From: a virus
Taxonomy: Duplodnaviria > Heunggongvirae > Uroviricota > Caudoviricetes
Strand: one strand, 5' to 3'
IMG/VR virus record: IMGVR_UViG_3300014515_000027
Length of the DNA: 8,834 nucleotides
Shown in pieces: positions 452-6,220 of this stretch; the stretch's first letter is position 1, and each line of letters starts with the position of its first letter. The notes under the pieces are model-generated. The model was not told where the DNA came from, made no database searches, and worked only from the letters and a program-made list of their open reading frames with translations. Both the position numbers and the translations under genes were made by a program.

Positions 452-640
452 TTATCCAGCCGGTGTTTCGTTATTCAGGTACAGCGATACTTTTTTTAGC
501 GGGAGGCATTCACCAGAAATTTTTTGCTCGTCTCTTGCCTGGAGGCAGGATTCTTTACTTGCATAAATTCCGGTAATCACATTCTGTGATTCACCCGTTA
601 TAAGAAAAACCGTCATCATCAGTGCAAATGCTGAAGTCAT
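452..640 (-). CDS. Small hypothetical protein (62 aa) with a short hydrophobic N-terminal segment
   Basis: ATG at 640 with GGAG about 7 nt upstream on the minus strand; 4-nt ATGA overlap with the preceding gene. N-terminus MTSAFALMMTVFLITG is hydrophobic. No recognisable family. Confidence 0.4.
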   Translation of the reverse strand: MTSAFALMMTVFLITGESQNVITGIYASKESCLQARDEQKISGECLPLKKVSLYLNNETPAG

Positions 641-825
641 TGACGTTCTCCGAAAATACCAAGTTCAAGAAGAGCAATTCGGGAAAGTATGGAATTATCA
701 TTGAGCAGATAAGGCTCATATTTCCTCATATTAATGGCATCTTCAGTAAACTCCCGGTTACTGAGCAGAACACCAATATCAAAACAACCTTCAGACGTAT
801 TAACGTTTGGTAATAACGTTTCCAT
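637..825 (-). CDS. Small hypothetical protein (62 aa), leftward operon
   Basis: ATG at 825 with GAGGA about 7 nt upstream on the minus strand. Its stop overlaps the start of the next gene as ATGA at 637-640, suggesting translational coupling. No recognisable family. Confidence 0.45.
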   Translation of the reverse strand: METLLPNVNTSEGCFDIGVLLSNREFTEDAINMRKYEPYLLNDNSILSRIALLELGIFGERQ

Positions 826-1396
826 TATCGCGTCCTCAACAATGAATTTTGTGATGCAGTGCCTGGTGCCTCCAGGTGACGTTAACCAGTTAACAATTAA
901 CGCCGGGTTAGTTGATGCTCGTTACGCCCGTAAAATACCGCCTTACTGCTTTAACTGTTCCGCGTGCGCATAGCCGCATTCACCGCATCACAAAATTCAC
1001 TTTAAAAAGGGCGGCAGAGCAGTCACGGAGTAAAACTGATACCGCCAAATGTCACCAGAAAATTGATAACAGAGGGCGTTGTAGCGGGGTTGTCACTTAA
1101 GCGTATGGTCAACCTGACAACCCGGTGCATTTTCTGGAGCAATGGAGGAAACCCCAGCCATACTTACCGCCGCGCCATTTCGCGGAGTGCCACAACCGGA
1201 AGCGCACGGTCGAACTAAATTTAACGACACCGTACAGAGAGACCAATTTCGCCGTGCGCTTTCGCGTTATGCCCTGACTTTTCAGGGACATATCCTTTCA
1301 GTAAGCTGTCAGTGCCGGATGCTCACCCGTGTCCGGCGCACGCACTCCACCTGACCCGTGGAGAACTCCTTAATTACCAACCCTCAGGAGGGTGAA

Positions 1397-1675
1397 ATGG
1401 ATAAAAAGCAAATTGAGGCCCTGCAATCTATTATTGAAGAACAAGATGAAGCTATCAGGATTCTTTCATATCGCACTGATATGATACTAAATATGCTTTC
1501 TGCATTAACGGCTGCGCTTGGTGGTACAAAAACAAACGTATACCGCGAAGTTGTTATTCAACAGATAGATAAATTTGAAAAAACCATACCAGGTATTAAT
1601 GCTCATCTTGCAGAACAAGAGAAAGACCATGCTCTTATGGCAATTTCTTCAGTAGCTCTCCCGAAAGTTGAGTAG
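1397..1675 (+). CDS. Hypothetical protein (92 aa), predicted coiled-coil/helical; rightward-oriented gene embedded in leftward-operon territory
   Basis: ATG at 1397 preceded by AGGAGGG (1386-1392). The track ORF begins at an upstream GTG (1358) that has no ribosome-binding site. AT-rich by eye. Its 3' end overlaps the convergent gene 1635..2036 by about 40 bp. Confidence 0.55.
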   Translation: MDKKQIEALQSIIEEQDEAIRILSYRTDMILNMLSALTAALGGTKTNVYREVVIQQIDKFEKTIPGINAHLAEQEKDHALMAISSVALPKVE

Positions 1676-2036
1676 TTTTAATTGTTGTTTTGAAATAATC
1701 ACTGCTTTCACATTTGAGTGATTTCATGGCAATCCAAATGCGGGCCTCTGTGCCTGCATTTGGTTCCAGTTGCTGTAGACGTTTTGCGTCTTCCAAAAGT
1801 AAGGCGATAATGTGTTTCAGCTTCTCATCATTTGCTTGATTCTTGTTTTCAGGCGAATTCTGTCCGCCGAATAGGCGCTTCTCTTCATACAGACCTATAA
1901 AGGCACGACGCACGTTACCGGATATAGTATCGATGGTTTCCTTTTCTACGGTACTCAGGTCAAGAGTCGCCAGTTGAGAGCGAACCACATTCGATGCCAT
2001 TTCCTGGAATGGTACTGGTAAATCTTTAAATTCCAT
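1635..2036 (-). CDS. Hypothetical protein (~133 aa), AT-rich accessory gene
   Basis: Internal ATG at 2036 has GAGG with a 6-nt spacer upstream (minus strand); the track start at 2048 has no ribosome-binding site. Product begins MEFKDLPVPFQEMASNVVRSQLATLD... with no family motif recognised. Sits 11 nt downstream of the stop of 2048..2281. Confidence 0.6.
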   Translation of the reverse strand: MEFKDLPVPFQEMASNVVRSQLATLDLSTVEKETIDTISGNVRRAFIGLYEEKRLFGGQNSPENKNQANDEKLKHIIALLLEDAKRLQQLEPNAGTEARIWIAMKSLKCESSDYFKTTIKTTQLSGELLKKLP

Positions 2037-2047
2037 CGTCAACCTCA

Positions 2048-2281
2048 TCAGTCAGTGTTTCTGGTTAACCAGCGACGCGCGCCAGCTTCAGTTTTAAACG
2101 TTTTGCTTCTGGTATACGTCATCGCGGTGAACGTACCGTCCTGGTTGGGGAACACGCCACATACCAGAGATTCGCTGTTGCCAAGATCGATAGTATCCAT
2201 GCTGACCTCATTTCCCCTTAACGCCGGGGTAGCGGAACAAAAACCTGCTGCATAGTTATTAAAGTTGAACCCTGCCGTCAT
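2048..2281 (-). CDS. Small hypothetical protein (77 aa from the ATG at 2281, or 50 aa from the ATG at 2200); first gene downstream of the putative left operator
   Basis: Two candidate starts, each with a GAGG ribosome-binding site on the minus strand (9-nt spacer for 2281, 5-nt spacer for 2200). Forms a two-gene leftward unit with 1635..2036. Confidence 0.45.
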   Translation of the reverse strand: MTAGFNFNNYAAGFCSATPALRGNEVSMDTIDLGNSESLVCGVFPNQDGTFTAMTYTRSKTFKTEAGARRWLTRNTD

Positions 2282-2385
2282 GTTCTTACGCCTCGGGCTG
2301 GCTACTTAACCCCTGACCACTGCCTGGTAACTCGAAGTATTGCCCTGCATTCTGTGGGGCGGGGTGGGTTGGTATGAAAAGAAGG

Positions 2386-2424
2386 ATACCCATAGGTATT
2401 TAAAAAGTAAATACCCATGGGTAA
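2386..2424. promoter_or_regulatory. Putative left operator (OL-like): two TACC-N4-GGTA palindromes
   Basis: ATACC-CATA-GGTAT at 2386-2399 and the perfect palindrome TACCCATGGGTA at 2412-2423, centres about 25 bp apart, immediately beyond the 3' end of the repressor gene. Same half-site motif as the sites at 2904-2955. Confidence 0.45.
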
Positions 2425-2464
2425 ATTTTGCGGTGTCTTAACTGGTGACTAGTTGTTTGGTGAG

Positions 2465-2884
2465 CTATGATGCGTTTTGTGCTTTCTTTTTACGGATTTC
2501 TTCGTAGATCATATTGTAATACTGTTTTTTCTCTTCAAGAGTTTTTAATAATTTATCCGCTTCACTTTCTGGCAGTTCGTCTAAGAGATCTAAAAAAATA
2601 CGTTGTCGTGGCGTTAGAACCCTTGTTTCATAACTGGAGGCTGTGTTCGTTGATGATGAAACGATACCATCCATCCATCCCCGGGGTAACCCAAAGGACT
2701 CTTCGATAATCTCCACCATATCATCAGCGATCCGTTTTTTTCCCTTTTTCCCCTCTGGGTACAACATTCTTGATACATAAGAAGGCTCGCGCCCGATCTT
2801 TCTGGCCACGTTAACCGCTTTACCATCGCATTTCTCATCACGAATTTTGATGAGTTGCTGTCGTCTAAATTCATATTTGTCCAT
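2465..2884 (-). CDS. Prophage repressor, HTH DNA-binding protein without a LexA-like S24 peptidase domain (RacR-like)
   Basis: 139-aa ORF. Its N-terminal segment KAVNVARKIGREPSYVSRML looks like a helix-turn-helix; no peptidase-like C-terminal region. Divergent from the ydaS-like gene and flanked by operator palindromes. No Shine-Dalgarno before the ATG, but a TATTAT -10-like hexamer lies about 7 nt upstream, suggesting a leaderless transcript as for lambda cI. Confidence 0.8.
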   Translation of the reverse strand: MDKYEFRRQQLIKIRDEKCDGKAVNVARKIGREPSYVSRMLYPEGKKGKKRIADDMVEIIEESFGLPRGWMDGIVSSSTNTASSYETRVLTPRQRIFLDLLDELPESEADKLLKTLEEKKQYYNMIYEEIRKKKAQNAS

Positions 2885-2903
2885 AGGTAAATAATAGATG
2901 CGA

Positions 2904-2959
2904 TTACCGCAAGGTAAACAACCTGTGGGTATTGGCTTTTGTTTACCTGCGGGTATTCT
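2904..2959. promoter_or_regulatory. Putative right operator/promoter region (OR-like): three TACC-N4-GGTA sites overlapping a candidate rightward promoter
   Basis: TTACC-GCAA-GGTAA (2904-2917), aACC-TGTG-GGTAt (2920-2932) and TACC-TGCG-GGTA (2944-2955). Candidate rightward promoter: -35 TTGGCT (2932-2937), 16-nt spacer, -10 TATTCT (2954-2959), upstream of AAGGAG (2973-2978) and the ATG at 2985. Confidence 0.5.
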
Positions 2960-2984
2960 TTGCTGTGTTTACTAAGGAGTAGCT

Positions 2985-3266
2985 ATGGAAGAATTAAGAA
3001 TATTTCTCAATTCTCTTTCGTCAGATGAACAGCGTATGTTTGCATGCGAGTGTGGTACCAGCATCGGTTATCTAAGAAAGGCATTGAGTAAAGGTCAAGT
3101 GTTAGGGGCATCGTTATGTGTCCTTATTGAGCGAGCCAGTAATGGTGAAGTTACACGTCAGCAACTAAGGCCTTTTGATTGGATGAATATTTGGCCCGAG
3201 CTGGAAGATACCAAAACGTTAACACAACCACTTTCTAGGAGCTTGATTCATGAAAATCAAGCATGA
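2985..3266 (+). CDS. ydaS: YdaS-like Cro-type HTH protein
   Basis: 93 aa with a strong AAGGAG ribosome-binding site. Motifs CGTSIGYLRKALS ... EVTRQQLRPFDW...WPE match my recollection of the YdaS/Cro-like family. First gene of the rightward operon, divergent from the repressor. Confidence 0.7.
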   Translation: MEELRIFLNSLSSDEQRMFACECGTSIGYLRKALSKGQVLGASLCVLIERASNGEVTRQQLRPFDWMNIWPELEDTKTLTQPLSRSLIHENQA

Positions 3267-3675
3267 ACACATCCGCATGGCGATGAATGCCTGGGCGCGT
3301 CCTGATGGCGAAAAAGTTCCAGCAGCTGGAATAACCCAGGCTTATTTTGAGTTGGGTATGACGTTCCCGGAACTGTATGACGACAGCCATCCGGAAGCCC
3401 TGGCTCGCAATACCCAGAAAATTTTCCGCTGGGTAGAGAAAGCCCCCCCTGATGCTGTTGAAAAAATGCAGGCTCTGTTACCGGCGATCGAAAAGGCGAT
3501 GCCGCCTTTGCTGGTGGCCCGTATGCGCAGCCACAGTTCTGAATATTACCGTGAGATCGTCGAACGGAGGGATCGGCTGGTGAAGGATGTCGATGATTTT
3601 GTTGCGTCAGCGGTTGTTTTGTATGACCAGATGAATCGCGGCGGCCCGGCAGGGAATGCTGTGGTGATGCACTAA
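3250..3675 (+). CDS. ydaT: YdaT-like protein (reported CII-equivalent; toxic when derepressed)
   Basis: 141 aa beginning MKIKHEHI..., as I recall for YdaT. Start overlaps the ydaS-like stop by 17 nt; AGGAG at 3237-3241. Confidence 0.7.
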   Translation: MKIKHEHIRMAMNAWARPDGEKVPAAGITQAYFELGMTFPELYDDSHPEALARNTQKIFRWVEKAPPDAVEKMQALLPAIEKAMPPLLVARMRSHSSEYYREIVERRDRLVKDVDDFVASAVVLYDQMNRGGPAGNAVVMH

Positions 3676-3697
3676 AAGCACGGTGTTCGGGGGTTTT

Positions 3698-4660
3698 ATG
3701 AGCAGCAAGCTTCATGGTCTTGTCTGGGAAGGGTGCGCCTTCACCGGCATGATCTTATCCAGGGTGGCGGTTATGGCCCGTCTTGCAGACTACAGCAATG
3801 ACGAGGGCGTGTCATGGCCTGCCATTGAAACTATCCGGCGTCAGATCGGTGCAAGAAGTGAATCCACAGTGAAATCGGCTATTGCAGAACTGGCGAAAGA
3901 GGGCTGGCTGACGAAGGAAGAGCGTAAGGTCGGTGGGCGTAATGTAAGCAATATCTATCGGCTTAATGTGGAAAAACTCGAAGCAGCTGCGGCGGCGGCG
4001 CGTGAGTCATATAAACCGAAAAGAAAAATTAGCCCGGCAAAAAATGACCCGTTAACAGTTGACCCGTCAAATATTGACCCCTCAACGGTTGACCCGTCAA
4101 ATTTTGATGGATCAACTGTTGATAAAAAACTGCCGATTAGGGGGGCGATGATTGACCCCGATCCGTCAGTATTAAAACCTGATCCGTCAGATAAAAGATC
4201 TTCTTGTCCGGACGCTTCGCAACCGGACCCGCAGACGGCTGAACAGGATTTTTTAACCCGACACCCTGACGCGGTTGTGTTCAGTGCGAAAAAACGCCAG
4301 TGGGGAAGTCAGGAAGATTTGGTGTGCGCACAGTGGATCTGGGGACGAATCGTGAGTCTTTACGAGCAGGCGGCCAGCTATGATGGCGAGATCACTAGAC
4401 CGAAAGAACCCAACTGGACAGCATGGGCCAATGACGTTCGCACAATGCGGATGCTGGATGGCAGAACTCACAGACAAATTTGTGAAATGTTTGGGCGTCT
4501 CCAGCGGGATTCGTTCTGGGTAAAAAACATCATGAGTCCGGCAAAACTCCGGGAAAAATGGGATGAACTGGTTATCCGCCTGGGGCGTTCGCCTGCGCAG
4601 CGTTGCGTGAATCACATTTCTGAACCGGACACTGAAATACCGCCGGGATTCAGGGGGTGA
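3698..4660 (+). CDS. Phage replication initiation protein (N-terminal HTH domain; DnaT/O-like role), carrying internal repeats
   Basis: ATG at 3698 after a GGGGG run (3689-3693); the track start at 3683 is a GTG. N-terminal HTH-like segment VSWPAIETIRRQIGARSESTVKSAIAELAKEGWL. Lies immediately upstream of the DnaC-like gene, as O sits before P in lambda. Contains DP(L/S)(T/N)(V/I) peptide repeats encoded by the 15-bp DNA repeats at 4045-4104. Confidence 0.8.
   Translation: MSSKLHGLVWEGCAFTGMILSRVAVMARLADYSNDEGVSWPAIETIRRQIGARSESTVKSAIAELAKEGWLTKEERKVGGRNVSNIYRLNVEKLEAAAAAARESYKPKRKISPAKNDPLTVDPSNIDPSTVDPSNFDGSTVDKKLPIRGAMIDPDPSVLKPDPSDKRSSCPDASQPDPQTAEQDFLTRHPDAVVFSAKKRQWGSQEDLVCAQWIWGRIVSLYEQAASYDGEITRPKEPNWTAWANDVRTMRMLDGRTHRQICEMFGRLQRDSFWVKNIMSPAKLREKWDELVIRLGRSPAQRCVNHISEPDTEIPPGFRG
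4045..4134. repeat. Tandem 15-bp direct repeats (TGACCCGTCAA-N4 consensus) inside the initiator gene; candidate iterons/origin
   Basis: TGACCC at 4045, 4060, 4075 and 4090 with exact 15-bp period; degenerate TGAT units at 4105 and 4120. Followed by two GATCCGTCAG copies (4151-4160, 4172-4181) and A/T-rich runs. Confidence 0.55.
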
Positions 4661-4666
4661 CGTGTC

Positions 4667-5413
4667 ATGAAAAACATTGCGGCAGTTGGGGTTCTTGAAC
4701 GTATTCGCAGACTTGCACCACAGGGGTCGGTTCCACCGTACCGGACGGTGGAGGAGTGGCGGGAATGGCAACTTGCTGAAGGACGAAAACGCAGCGAGGA
4801 GATTAACCGCCAGAATCGCCAGTTGCGGGTGGAAAAAATCCTGAATCGTTCGGGCATCCAGCCTCTGCACAGCAAATGCTCGTTTGCAAATTATCAGGTG
4901 CAGAACGACGGGCAAAAATACGCGCTGAGCCAGGCCAAATCCATAGCTGACGAACTGATGACCGGGTGCACGAATTTTGTGTTCAGCGGTAAAACCGGCA
5001 CCGGGAAAAATCACCTTGCAGCGGCGATGGGCAACCGGCTGATGGTGAAGGGGCGCAGCGTGATTATCGTCACCGTGTCTGACGTCATGAGCGTGTTGCA
5101 TGACAGCTACGACAACGGCAAATCCGGGGAAAAATTTTTACAGGAGCTTTGCGGGGTTGATTTGCTGGTCCTGGATGAAATAGGCGTTCAGCGGGAGACG
5201 AAAAACGAGCAGGTGGTATTGCACCAGATAATTGATCGCCGGACAGCATCACTGTGCAGTGTCGGGATGTTAACAAACCTGAATCATGCCGCAATGAGTA
5301 CGCTTCTTGGTGAGAGGATTATGGACCGCATGACCATGAACGGTGGTCGATGGGTGACGTTTAACTGGGATAGCTGGCGTCCAAATGTCAGCAATATGAG
5401 GGTTGTGAAGTAA
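4667..5413 (+). CDS. DnaC-like helicase loader (AAA+ ATPase, IstB/DnaC family)
   Basis: 248 aa. Walker A GKTGTGKNHLAAAMG and Walker B LLVLDEIG are visible. GGGGG ribosome-binding site at 4653-4657. Start is 7 nt after the initiator stop. Confidence 0.9.
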   Translation: MKNIAAVGVLERIRRLAPQGSVPPYRTVEEWREWQLAEGRKRSEEINRQNRQLRVEKILNRSGIQPLHSKCSFANYQVQNDGQKYALSQAKSIADELMTGCTNFVFSGKTGTGKNHLAAAMGNRLMVKGRSVIIVTVSDVMSVLHDSYDNGKSGEKFLQELCGVDLLVLDEIGVQRETKNEQVVLHQIIDRRTASLCSVGMLTNLNHAAMSTLLGERIMDRMTMNGGRWVTFNWDSWRPNVSNMRVVK

Positions 5414-5434
5414 TTTTGTCCGGAGGAAATTTTA

Positions 5435-6205
5435 ATGGAAACCGTATCTGACGCACTGAAAGCACTGAAAAAAGCCTCTTCACATGTGGTGGCAGCTCGC
5501 CTTGGAATCAGTCGTGAAGAGGCTGTCAACGAGCTGTGGGAACTCAAAAGAAAAGGCGTCGTTGATAAAACTGGTCACACCTGGTTTCTGGCTGGCGAAG
5601 GTGAATCCCGGGTAACCGAAGAGCGGCCAGTAAAATCTGAAGCACAGGATATGCTGACCGGGGAGGTCGAACAAAAAGTTACCGCAGACATGATGATTGA
5701 GTTTATCGGTCAGGATGGGGCTAAAACGTGTGAGGAACTGGCGGGTAAGTTCGGTGTCAGTACTCGCAAGGTTGCTTCCACGCTGGCGGTGGTAACCGCA
5801 ACGGGGCGGCTGGCACGCGTTAATCAGAACGGTAAATTTCGTTACTGCATGCCGGGCGATAATTTACCAGCAGAGTCGAAAGCCGCGCTGGTAACGGAAA
5901 GTGATGGTAAGGCCTTTCCTCAGCCAGCAGGTGCTGCGTTACCAGTCCGGGAAGCCGCAACACAGGAAGAAATTAAAACAGAAACTGTGGCGGACATTGT
6001 GCAGCCGTTGCCATCGTTTACCGAAACGCAAGCAGATGAGCTGATTTTTCCGTCCCTTCGCAGGGCAAACCTGGCGCTGCGCAGGGCGAAAAGTGATGTT
6101 CAGAAGTGGGAGCGAGTCTGCGCCGCGCTGCGGGAGCTGAACAAGCACCGGGATATTGTTCGACAGATTACTGATTCTTCCCGCCGTGTTGTATCGGAAA
6201 AGTGA
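5435..6205 (+). CDS. Hypothetical prophage protein with two winged-helix-like segments
   Basis: 256 aa. GGAGG at 5421-5425 precedes the ATG. Two segments resemble each other: VVAARLGISREEAVNELWELKRKGVV and CEELAGKFGVSTRKVASTLAVVTATGRLARV. Confidence 0.65.
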   Translation: METVSDALKALKKASSHVVAARLGISREEAVNELWELKRKGVVDKTGHTWFLAGEGESRVTEERPVKSEAQDMLTGEVEQKVTADMMIEFIGQDGAKTCEELAGKFGVSTRKVASTLAVVTATGRLARVNQNGKFRYCMPGDNLPAESKAALVTESDGKAFPQPAGAALPVREAATQEEIKTETVADIVQPLPSFTETQADELIFPSLRRANLALRRAKSDVQKWERVCAALRELNKHRDIVRQITDSSRRVVSEK

Positions 6206-6220
6206 TTGCCGGAGGCGCTT

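What the first reader, a model, noticed from the sequence alone, without database searches (positions are those of the whole stretch)
2465..3675. Immunity module with a cleavage-domain-free repressor guarding a ydaS/ydaT-like pair
The repressor has an HTH but no LexA-like autocleavage domain. It is divergent from a translationally overlapping ydaS-like/ydaT-like pair. As I recall the literature on Rac and CP-933P, RacR-type repressors are essential because derepressed ydaS/ydaT are toxic, and YdaT has been described as a CII-like regulator. The prophage would then be non-inducible by the classical RecA route and the repressor would behave as an addiction-like element.
Basis: partly seen in the sequence, partly recalled or inferred. 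Interest (0 to 1): 0.45.

Follow-up and report, generated by a model that had tools for sequence, protein, structure and literature searches.

The report
Prophage lysis-lysogeny switch, swapped immunity cassette
This is the ordinary lysis/lysogeny control region of a common E. coli lambda-like prophage: a short repressor without a self-cleavage domain faces Cro-like and CII-like regulators, a layout already described for related prophages, and it is not a toxin-guarding addiction module.

Summary
The three ORFs exist as described: repressor 2465-2884(-), Cro/YdaS-like 2985-3266(+) and YdaT 3250-3675(+), with a 17-nt overlap.

- **YdaT** is 94% identical to the crystallised, DNA-binding YdaT of CP-933P/Sp12. 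Its published operator TTGATTN6AATCAA sits exactly on the ydaT start (3243-3260).
- **The repressor** has an XRE-type HTH fold and no S24 peptidase. It is unrelated to RacR and is a distant full-length homologue of PaaR2, the CI analogue of CP-933P.
- **The repressor is a mosaic.** Its N-terminal domain, its operators (TACC-N4-GGTA: three in OR, two in OL) and its Cro match phage mEp043, whose cI carries an S24 domain. Its C-terminal helical domain is the DicA/Sp10 type.
- **Against Sp12**, only 2376-3237 (OL, repressor, OR, cro) is replaced, and the paaA2-parE2 toxin-antitoxin pair is absent.
- **The module** occurs in about 15% of complete E. coli genomes.

Peptidase-free repressors of O157 prophages, and YdaS/YdaT acting as Cro/CII analogues rather than toxins, are already published. 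The RacR assignment and the toxin-based addiction are not supported. Loss of RecA-stimulated self-cleavage is likely, but induction by an antirepressor is not excluded. This is a new member of a known kind, of modest interest.

The parts
2383..2424 (-). OL/PL: two operators TACCCATAGGTA (2387-2398) and TACCCATGGGTA (2412-2423), 25 bp apart. They flank a leftward promoter-like site (-35 TTTACT 2411->2406, -10 TATCCT 2388->2383). Together the two operators also form a 16-bp hairpin followed by a T-run on the minus strand.
   Evidence: The same 25-bp-spaced operator pair lies beside the repressor in phage mEp043 and in a Salmonella S24-repressor prophage. Promoter assignment is inferred from consensus only.
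2465..2884 (-). Repressor (CI analogue), 139 aa. It has an N-terminal XRE-type HTH domain (residues 1-75), a disordered linker (76-87) and a C-terminal two-helix DicA/Sp10/PaaR2-type domain (88-139). There is no S24 peptidase.
2878..2960 (.). OR with divergent promoters. Operators: OR3 TACCGCAAGGTA (2905-2916), OR2 AACCTGTGGGTA (2920-2931), OR1 TACCTGCGGGTA (2944-2955), plus a weak site at 2878-2889. PR: -35 TTGGCT 2932-2937, -10 TATTCT 2954-2959. PRM: -35 TTTACC 2918->2913, -10 TATTAT 2896->2891. The PRM -10 ends 7 nt before the repressor ATG, which implies a leaderless mRNA.
   Evidence: Layout and spacing are conserved with mEp043 and the Salmonella relative. The motif occurs 9 times in the window against 1.8 expected, and no shuffle of 200 reached 9. 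Binding is not tested.
2985..3266 (+). Cro analogue ('YdaS-like'), 93 aa, with Shine-Dalgarno AAGGAG at 2974-2979.
   Evidence: 73% identical to mEp043 Cro, 61% to the Cro of the Salmonella S24-type prophage and 36% to CP-933P YdaS. PDB 8c7k/8co2 'Cro' match at E 1e-10. Pfam YdaS_toxin scores 25.8 bits, below the cut-off of 30.
3243..3260 (.). YdaT operator OM, TTGATTCATGAAAATCAA, an exact match to the published TTGATTN6AATCAA. It is centred on the ydaT start codon.
   Evidence: and PMC9986795. The site is conserved at the same place in phages Evi and Tritos and in other E. coli copies. Homology with CP-933P-type phages begins exactly here.
3250..3675 (+). YdaT, the CII analogue, 141 aa (POU-like HTH domain plus a tetramerising helix).
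   Evidence: 94.3% identical to Sakai Sp12/CP-933P YdaT and to PDB 8bt1 and 30% to Rac YdaT. Pfam YdaT_toxin scores 31 bits against a cut-off of 21. phrog_163 'CII-like activator'.
3698..5413 (+). Context, PR operon continues: O-like replication initiator (3698-4660) and DnaC-like helicase loader (4667-5413).
   Evidence: They are 98.8% and 88% identical to Sp12 ECs_2276 and ECs_2275.
637..2200 (-). Context, PL operon: DUF1391 gene (2048-2200), a 137-aa ORF (1635-2048), DicF sRNA (1009-1060) and dicB (637-825). These are the likely source of lethality on derepression.
   Evidence: The gene order matches that downstream of dicA in Qin.

Best explanation
Coordinates 2376-3675 are the lysis/lysogeny switch of a CP-933P/Sp12-like lambdoid prophage that carries a different immunity cassette.

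- The 139-aa repressor is the CI analogue. Its XRE-type HTH domain binds 12-bp palindromes TACC-N4-GGTA, three in OR and two in OL.
- Binding at OR shuts PR, which drives cro, ydaT, O, P and the later genes. Binding at OL shuts PL, which drives DUF1391, DicF, dicB, exo, xis and int.
- The repressor is probably autoregulated from a leaderless PRM.
- Its short C-terminal helical domain (DicA/Sp10/PaaR2 type) provides oligomerisation in place of the S24 peptidase domain, so RecA cannot trigger self-cleavage.
- The 93-aa protein is the Cro analogue for the same operators.
- YdaT is the CII analogue. It binds OM on its own start codon and turns on a leftward PRE-like promoter to establish repressor synthesis.

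What is shown here: gene identities, domain architecture, homologies, operator motifs with their conserved layout, and the cassette boundaries. What is shown for close homologues in the literature: YdaT DNA binding and PRE activation, and PaaR2/YdaS acting like CI/Cro. What is inferred: which protein binds which site here, the promoter positions, the oligomeric state, and the induction route.
For: - YdaT is 94.3% identical to CP-933P/Sp12 YdaT and has an exact OM operator at its start. PMC9986795 and PMC8630535 show DNA binding and PRE activation.
- Repressor family against PaaR2: hhalign probability 97.4%, E 1e-11, over the full length. The Evi comparator is 98.4% identical to Sp12 PaaR2.
- The repressor's C-terminus is homologous to DicA and about 80% identical to Sp10 ECs_1941 and Tritos CI.
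- Its N-terminal 75-86 residues are 64-82% identical to S24-bearing repressors, including mEp043 cI.
- TACC-N4-GGTA is enriched (9 against 1.8 expected) and clustered on both sides of the repressor gene. The OR/OL layout is the same in mEp043 and in a Salmonella S24 prophage.
- Cro is 73% identical to mEp043 Cro.
- The backbone is 92-97% identical to Sp12 on both sides of a non-homologous cassette at 2376-3237.
- The repressor gene is intact in the RefSeq complete genomes examined: 709 of 821 carry the exact 88-nt segment and none carries the frameshift allele.
Against: - No binding, transcription or induction experiment exists for this repressor or this Cro.
- The promoters are weak consensus matches (8-9 of 12), and the scan found no more promoter-like sites than chance.
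- Similarity to PaaR2 is only 23% by BLASTP.
- The function of the C-terminal domain is inferred from PaaR2 biophysics cited in PMC8630535, not tested.
- Pfam and NCBIfam do not place the repressor in any family.
Confidence: 0.85

Rival explanations
1. A RacR-type repressor is kept essential because it silences a toxic YdaS/YdaT pair, giving a toxin-repressor addiction element.
For: In Rac, racR is essential and ectopic YdaS/YdaT are toxic (PMC5700377, PMC5700373). Rac YdaT causes filamentation through rcsA (PMC11879457). The gene order here is the same, and the YdaT here is 30% identical to Rac YdaT.
Against: - There is no homology to RacR.
- The YdaT here belongs to the CP-933P clade (94%), and that protein was not toxic and acts as a CII-like activator (PMC8630535).
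- The 'YdaS' here is the Cro of the mEp043 immunity type.
- PL here drives DicF and dicB and PR drives replication genes. These are better candidates for any lethality.
Confidence: 0.1
2. The 139-aa ORF is a decayed remnant of an S24-type cI (a truncated pseudogene), and the prophage is no longer regulated by it.
For: Its N-terminal domain is 65-82% identical to that of full-length S24 repressors. Frameshifted copies at an A7 run exist in some GenBank assemblies.
Against: - The C-terminal 50 residues are not S24 debris. They form a conserved helical domain shared with DicA, Sp10, Tritos CI and PaaR2.
- Full-length 135-140-aa homologues at 50-57% identity occur in Serratia and Yersinia.
- Only about 180 nt lie between the stop codon and the next gene, and they contain the OL operators.
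- No RefSeq complete genome has the A8 frameshift (0 of 821) and 709 carry the exact A7 segment. The frameshifts are therefore probably homopolymer sequencing errors.
Confidence: 0.03
3. Same switch, but still SOS-responsive. The non-cleavable repressor is inactivated by a small LexA-controlled antirepressor, encoded elsewhere in this prophage or by a co-resident prophage, as in Gifsy phages.
Against: The window has no LexA box and no recognisable antirepressor or dinI gene. Sakai prophages with peptidase-free repressors (Sp6, Sp9, Sp10) were not mitomycin-inducible (PMC2669165), and PaaR2 is reported as unresponsive to mitomycin C.
Confidence: 0.25

Closest known systems
CP-933P / Sakai Sp12 immunity region (PaaR2 - YdaS - YdaT; Jurenas 2021 PMC8630535, Prolic-Kalinsek 2023 PMC9986795)
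   Same: The backbone is shared: 92-97% DNA identity on both flanks, YdaT 94%, O protein 98.8%. The gene order is the same. The OM operator is identical. The repressor is a distant full-length PaaR2 homologue without a peptidase domain. Cro is a YdaS homologue at 36% identity.
   Different: The cassette 2376-3237 is non-homologous. It has different operators (TACC-N4-GGTA rather than the GTTTAGTAA-type repeats reported for CP-933P), a different DNA-binding specificity, and no paaA2-parE2 toxin-antitoxin pair next to the repressor. cro overlaps ydaT by 17 nt here against 4 nt in Sp12.
Phage mEp043 immunity region (cI with S24 peptidase, Cro) and S24-type relatives in Salmonella, Edwardsiella and Pantoea
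   Same: The repressor N-terminal domain is 65% identical and Cro is 73% identical. The operator motif, number and spacing at OR and OL are the same.
   Different: mEp043 cI is 228 aa with a C-terminal S24 domain (GDSM motif), whereas this repressor has a 50-residue helical domain. mEp043 has a lambda-type cII rather than YdaT, and an N antiterminator.
DicA (Qin), Sp9 ECs_1765, Sp10 ECs_1941 and phage Tritos CI: short peptidase-free lambdoid repressors
   Same: The C-terminal domain is shared (L-T/S-x2-Q-x2-LL-x-LF-x2-LPExE...). It is 33% identical to DicA and about 80% identical to Sp10/Tritos. The PL operon is also the same, with DUF1391, DicF and dicB.
   Different: Their N-terminal domains are Pfam HTH_3 with other specificities. 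The NCBIfam DicA model scores 24.5 bits against a cut-off of 101. Their Cro partners (DicC, ECs_1942) are unrelated.
RacR - YdaS - YdaT of Rac (E. coli K-12) and Sakai Sp6
   Same: The layout is the same: a divergent repressor facing ydaS and ydaT, followed by replication genes. YdaT is 30% identical, and a 28-residue stretch of YdaS is similar.
   Different: The repressor is unrelated in sequence. The toxicity and host rcsA targeting described for Rac YdaT have not been shown for this YdaT clade.
Gifsy-type repressor/antirepressor systems and SPC32H Rep-Ant
   Different: No antirepressor gene or LexA box was found in the window. There is no detectable sequence relationship to any PDB chain.

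Membership tests
RacR family repressors | Sequence homology to RacR (158 aa) | tested here: not met
   BLASTP best E 2.3. hhalign of the repressor family profile against RacR gives probability 0.2%.
PaaR2-type CI analogues | Full-length homology to PaaR2 of CP-933P/Sp12 | tested here: met
   hhalign probability 97.4%, E 1e-11, covering 113 of 123 residues, against the Evi regulator. That regulator is 98.4% identical to Sp12 ECs_2279. Direct BLASTP gives 23% identity over 90 aa, E 8e-9.
PaaR2-type CI analogues | No S24 peptidase domain; position divergent from the cro/ydaS analogue | tested here: met
PaaR2-type CI analogues | Dimer-to-octamer assembly; represses PR and PL and activates PRM | not testable with these tools
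   Known for PaaR2 only (PMC8630535).
paaR2-paaA2-parE2 three-component toxin-antitoxin system | PaaA2 antitoxin and ParE2 toxin genes directly downstream of the regulator | tested here: not met
   The repressor is followed by 180 nt of operator DNA and then a DUF1391 gene. PaaA2/ParE2 are present in Sp12 and PaaA2 in Evi.
LexA/CI S24 self-cleaving repressors | C-terminal Peptidase_S24 domain with the Ser/Lys dyad | tested here: not met
   No Pfam hit at E<=0.1. The C-terminus is two helices. The protein is 139 aa against 221-242 aa for S24 relatives.
LexA/CI S24 self-cleaving repressors | Homologous N-terminal DNA-binding domain | tested here: met
   64-82% identity over residues 1-75/86 to PF00717-bearing proteins.
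DicA (NCBIfam NF007257) | Whole-protein score above the curated cut-off | tested here: not met
   24.5 bits against a cut-off of 101. Only model positions 81-131 match. C-terminal homology is confirmed.
YdaT (Pfam PF06254), CII analogue | Score above the gathering threshold and full-length homology to characterised YdaT | tested here: met
   31 bits against 21. 94% identity to 8bt1 and Sp12 YdaT.
YdaT (Pfam PF06254), CII analogue | Cognate operator TTGATTN6AATCAA at the cro/ydaT junction | tested here: met
   Exact match at 3243-3260, against 0.68 expected per window at <=2 mismatches.
YdaS (Pfam PF15943 / Cro-like) | Score above the gathering threshold | tested here: not met
   25.8 bits against 30. 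Homology is nevertheless clear: 36% identity to CP-933P YdaS at E 5e-17, and that protein passes Pfam at 46 bits.
Type II toxin-antitoxin pair (YdaS/YdaT as labelled in Pfam) | One partner inhibits growth and the other neutralises it by direct binding | not testable with these tools
   The literature on the 94%-identical YdaT reports no toxicity and a regulatory role (PMC8630535).
Lambda-type immunity region | Repressor gene flanked by two sets of repeated palindromic operators that overlap divergent (OR) and leftward (OL) promoters | tested here: met
   Five TACC-N4-GGTA sites lie at 2387-2423 and 2905-2955. The motif is enriched, overlaps promoter-like hexamers and keeps the same layout in relatives. 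Occupancy is not tested.

The most novel reading that the evidence does not exclude
One immunity specificity (DNA-binding domain, TACC-N4-GGTA operators, Cro) exists in nature on two chassis. In mEp043-type phages the domain is fused to an S24 self-cleaving module. Here it is fused to a DicA/Sp10-type helical module. If so, the prophage carried by about 15% of E. coli would be homoimmune to mEp043-like phages yet blind to RecA-stimulated cleavage. That would make it a natural 'ind-' allele produced by domain exchange, acting as a standing, SOS-proof immunity against that phage group. It would also give a clean natural pair for testing how induction pathways are rewired by swapping only the repressor's C-terminal module.
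Probability: 0.4. Interest if true: 0.4.

Novelty: new member of a known kind. Interest (0 to 1): 0.25.

Why it matters
The practical value is mostly in annotation. A protein labelled 'hypothetical' in RefSeq, with no Pfam family, is present in roughly one in seven complete E. coli genomes, including O157:H7. It can now be named as the prophage repressor, with its operators, its Cro partner and its CII analogue identified. The 'toxin YdaT' and 'YdaS toxin' labels are misleading here.

Two further points follow. Lambdoid immunity cassettes recombine at very sharp joints, at PL/OL on one side and at the YdaT operator on the other. Repressors also exchange their DNA-binding and oligomerisation/induction modules independently. 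Nothing here overturns current understanding, because peptidase-free repressors and YdaS/YdaT as Cro/CII analogues are already published.

Tried and rejected
- **RacR homology.** Direct BLASTP and a profile comparison both found none.
- **Hidden peptidase domain.** No Pfam, NCBIfam or PADLOC hit, and the model shows only helices.
- **Solved structure of the repressor family.** Neither the single sequence nor the profile matched any PDB chain significantly.
- **Natural repressor-null alleles as a test of essentiality.** Frameshifted proteins in the database trace to A7->A8 in an otherwise identical gene. No RefSeq complete genome has A8 (0 of 821) and 709 have the exact A7 segment. I treat the frameshifts as homopolymer sequencing errors, so they say nothing about essentiality.
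- **LexA box or cis-encoded antirepressor.** No CTGT-N8-ACAG above chance in the window and no antirepressor or dinI family hit.
- **Identity with a named Sakai prophage.** Sp6 has a RacR-size (158-aa) repressor with an annotated ydaS gene, Sp9 a DicA-like repressor at the same ompW site, and Sp10 a Tritos-type repressor. None carries this cassette. Sp12 shares the backbone only. Sp4 was not checked.
- **Mapping PRE.** A weak leftward promoter-like site at 3214->3186 lies in cassette-specific DNA. The literature places the CP-933P PRE start at OM. I could not assign PRE here.
- **Isolated phages with this exact repressor.** None at the DNA level in the phage collection. Only domain-level relatives were found.
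Full report
**Observation.** The window contains the three ORFs exactly as described: 2465-2884(-) 139 aa, 2985-3266(+) 93 aa and 3250-3675(+) 141 aa. The last two overlap by 17 nt, and a 100-nt intergenic region separates the divergent genes. All three have strong phage-family matches: phrog_5736 'transcriptional regulator' E 6e-70, phrog_35 E 5e-23 and phrog_163 'CII-like transcriptional activator' E 2e-45. The 1.5-kb module is found at >=80% coverage in 813 of 5426 complete E. coli genomes. An 88-nt piece of the repressor gene is found in 821.

**The rightward genes.** The 141-aa protein passes the Pfam YdaT model (31 bits against a cut-off of 21). It is 94% identical to PDB 8bt1, the crystallised YdaT of CP-933P, and to Sakai Sp12 ECs_2277. 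It is 30% identical to Rac YdaT over its full length.

Prolic-Kalinsek et al. (PMC9986795) showed that this protein is a tetrameric POU-like HTH regulator. Its primary site OM is TTGATTN6AATCAA, at the end of ydaS. That sequence occurs once, exactly, at 3243-3260, centred on the ydaT ATG. It is at the same position in phages Evi and Tritos and in other E. coli copies.

The 93-aa protein falls just below the Pfam YdaS threshold (25.8 against 30 bits) but is a clear homologue of CP-933P YdaS (36% identity, E 5e-17). It also matches two PDB 'Cro' entries (E 1e-10). Its closest relatives are the Cro of coliphage mEp043 (73%) and the Cro of a Salmonella prophage (61%).

**The repressor.** It matches no Pfam family, neither HTH nor Peptidase_S24. 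RefSeq calls it 'hypothetical protein'. It has no similarity to RacR (BLASTP E 2.3; hhalign probability 0.2%).

A database search gave two kinds of relative:
- full-length 135-140-aa proteins at 50-57% identity in Serratia and Yersinia;
- many 221-242-aa LexA-family/S24 repressors that share only residues 1 to about 75-86, at 64-82% identity. These include mEp043 cI (65%).

The C-terminal 50 residues resemble instead the C-terminus of DicA (33% identity; NCBIfam NF007257 positions 81-131; hhalign 97%). They are about 80% identical to the C-terminus of Sakai Sp10 ECs_1941 and phage Tritos CI, whose N-terminal domains are ordinary Pfam HTH_3.

The family profile aligns over its full length with PaaR2 (hhalign 97.4%, E 1e-11). 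The comparator is 98.4% identical to Sp12 PaaR2.

The repressor is therefore a PaaR2-family CI analogue and a mosaic. It combines an mEp043-type DNA-binding domain with a DicA/Sp10-type C-terminal module, and it has no cleavage domain.

**Operators and promoters.** The palindrome TACC-N4-GGTA occurs 9 times in the window at <=1 mismatch, against 1.8 expected, and no shuffle of 200 reached 9. Five of the sites flank the repressor gene:
- 2387 and 2412, 25 bp apart, on the OL side;
- 2905, 2920 and 2944 on the OR side.

The same motif, number and spacing are found beside the S24-type repressors of mEp043 and of the Salmonella prophage.

Promoter-like hexamers overlap these sites:
- PR: TTGGCT-16-TATTCT at 2932-2959;
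- PRM: TTTACC-16-TATTAT at 2918->2891, whose -10 ends 7 nt before the repressor ATG, implying a leaderless transcript as for lambda cI;
- PL: TTTACT-17-TATCCT at 2411->2383.

These promoter calls are consensus-level inferences. The scan as a whole found no more sites than chance.

**Cassette boundaries.** Against Sakai Sp12 (= CP-933P), window 2211-2375 is 97% identical and 3238-6256 is 92% identical. Nothing between 2376 and 3237 aligns. The right-hand joint falls exactly at the OM operator.

In Sp12 the equivalent cassette holds parE2-paaA2-paaR2-OR-ydaS. Here it holds OL-repressor-OR-cro with no toxin-antitoxin pair. The O-like initiator is 98.8% identical and the DnaC-like loader 88% identical.

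To the left, PL leads into a Qin-like operon: a DUF1391 gene, DicF sRNA (1009-1060, Rfam 77 bits) and dicB (637-825).

**Mechanism.** The best-supported reading is a lambda-style bistable switch.
- The repressor occupies OR and OL. This silences PR (cro, ydaT, O, P, then Q and lysis) and PL (DicF, dicB, exo, xis, int).
- Cro competes for the same operators.
- YdaT binds OM and activates a leftward PRE-like promoter to establish repressor synthesis.

These activities were demonstrated for the CP-933P homologues PaaR2, YdaS and YdaT (PMC8630535). Here they are inferred from homology, which is 94% for YdaT but remote for the other two, and from the operator layout.

The anatomy and the CP-933P link are right. 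'RacR-type' is wrong at the sequence level.

The toxin-based addiction is not supported. The near-identical CP-933P YdaT was not toxic. YdaS/YdaT are regarded as Cro/CII analogues (PMC5917428). The addictive element of CP-933P, paaA2-parE2, is absent here.

Conditional essentiality of the repressor remains plausible, as Jobling's letter notes for RacR and the putative repressors of Qin and e14. The likely cause would be DicF/dicB, in-situ replication and lysis genes.

Loss of RecA-stimulated self-cleavage is well supported. Asadulghani et al. reported that O157 prophage repressors lacking the peptidase motif (Sp6, Sp9, Sp10) are not mitomycin-inducible (PMC2669165). However, Lemire et al. showed that equally short Gifsy repressors are SOS-induced through LexA-controlled antirepressors that can act in trans, and they named DicA and RacR as members of that group (PMC3121763). 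I found no LexA box or antirepressor in the window. A trans-acting factor cannot be excluded.

**Dead ends.** Frameshifted versions of the repressor in the protein database looked like natural null alleles. They differ only by A7->A8 in a homopolymer. They are absent from all 821 RefSeq complete genomes that carry the gene, so they are probably sequencing errors. No solved structure is related by sequence. None of Sakai Sp6, Sp9 or Sp10 carries this cassette.

**Verdict.** This is a well-formed and very common lambdoid immunity region of an already described type, and a new member of a known kind. The only mildly new points are three:
- the identification of an unannotated repressor as a PaaR2-family mosaic;
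- its operator set;
- the fact that the same immunity specificity exists with and without an S24 domain.

Interest is low to moderate.

Noticed in passing
window 7554-7882: A hok/sok type I toxin-antitoxin locus. The sok RNA matches Rfam strongly (7554-7729, 120 bits). The hok ORF carries a 34-nt deletion relative to the otherwise 99.96%-identical SCU-172 prophage. This frameshifts the Hok C-terminus (...ALVT|ARRRSLSS... instead of ...ALVTRKDLCEVR...), so the toxin is probably inactivated while the antisense RNA is intact.
   Followed up: partly
window 637-1060 (-): DicF sRNA (1009-1060, Rfam 77 bits) and dicB (637-825) lie downstream of the putative PL, as in Qin. Both are cell-division inhibitors and would be released on derepression, which makes them a more likely source of repressor essentiality than ydaS/ydaT.
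   Followed up: partly
window 2737-2743 (T7 on + strand; A7 in the repressor coding strand, codons KKGKKR): This homopolymer is the site of +1/-1 frameshift variants seen in several GenBank and Logan assemblies, which give 135-136-aa 'proteins' in the database. The A8 allele is absent from all 821 RefSeq complete genomes that carry the gene. It is most likely a long-read homopolymer error rather than phase variation.
   Followed up: yes
window 2387-2423 (-): The two OL operators together form a 16-bp hairpin followed by TCCTTCTTTT on the minus strand. This terminator-like structure lies just downstream of the repressor gene. It could end PRM transcripts (like lambda t_imm) as well as bind repressor.
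   Followed up: no
window 2376 and 3238 (cassette joints): Homology to Sakai Sp12/CP-933P stops and restarts abruptly: 97% up to 2375, and 92% from 3238. The right-hand joint is exactly at the YdaT operator. As a result, the last ~17 codons of this Cro read through DNA that belongs to the ydaT module, which explains the unusual 17-nt overlap.
   Followed up: yes
window 6800-7486 (+): An epoxyqueuosine reductase (QueH) gene sits as a cargo gene between the replication/DUF977 genes and hok/sok. It is conserved in the O157 and SCU-172 copies of the prophage.
   Followed up: no
L006 5733-6298; L019 8052-8523: ParE-family toxin genes lie next to the repressor both in the Salmonella S24-type relative (opposite strand) and in Sp12 (same operon). 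The slot immediately downstream of the repressor appears to be a recurrent landing site for ParE-type toxin-antitoxin cargo. It is empty in this window.
   Followed up: no
window 1358-2048: Two convergent ORFs overlap by about 40 nt inside the PL operon: 1358-1675(+) 105 aa (phrog_18692) and 1635-2048(-) 137 aa (phrog_1363). Both are of unknown function. The plus-strand gene is oriented against PL transcription.
   Followed up: no
L014 9924-10778: In some copies of this prophage (for example CP041550.1), a 284-aa Phage_ASH/Phage_pRha-domain protein is inserted between the DUF1391 cluster and dicB. Rha/Ash-family proteins are sometimes antirepressor-like regulators. The gene is absent from the window.
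   Followed up: no
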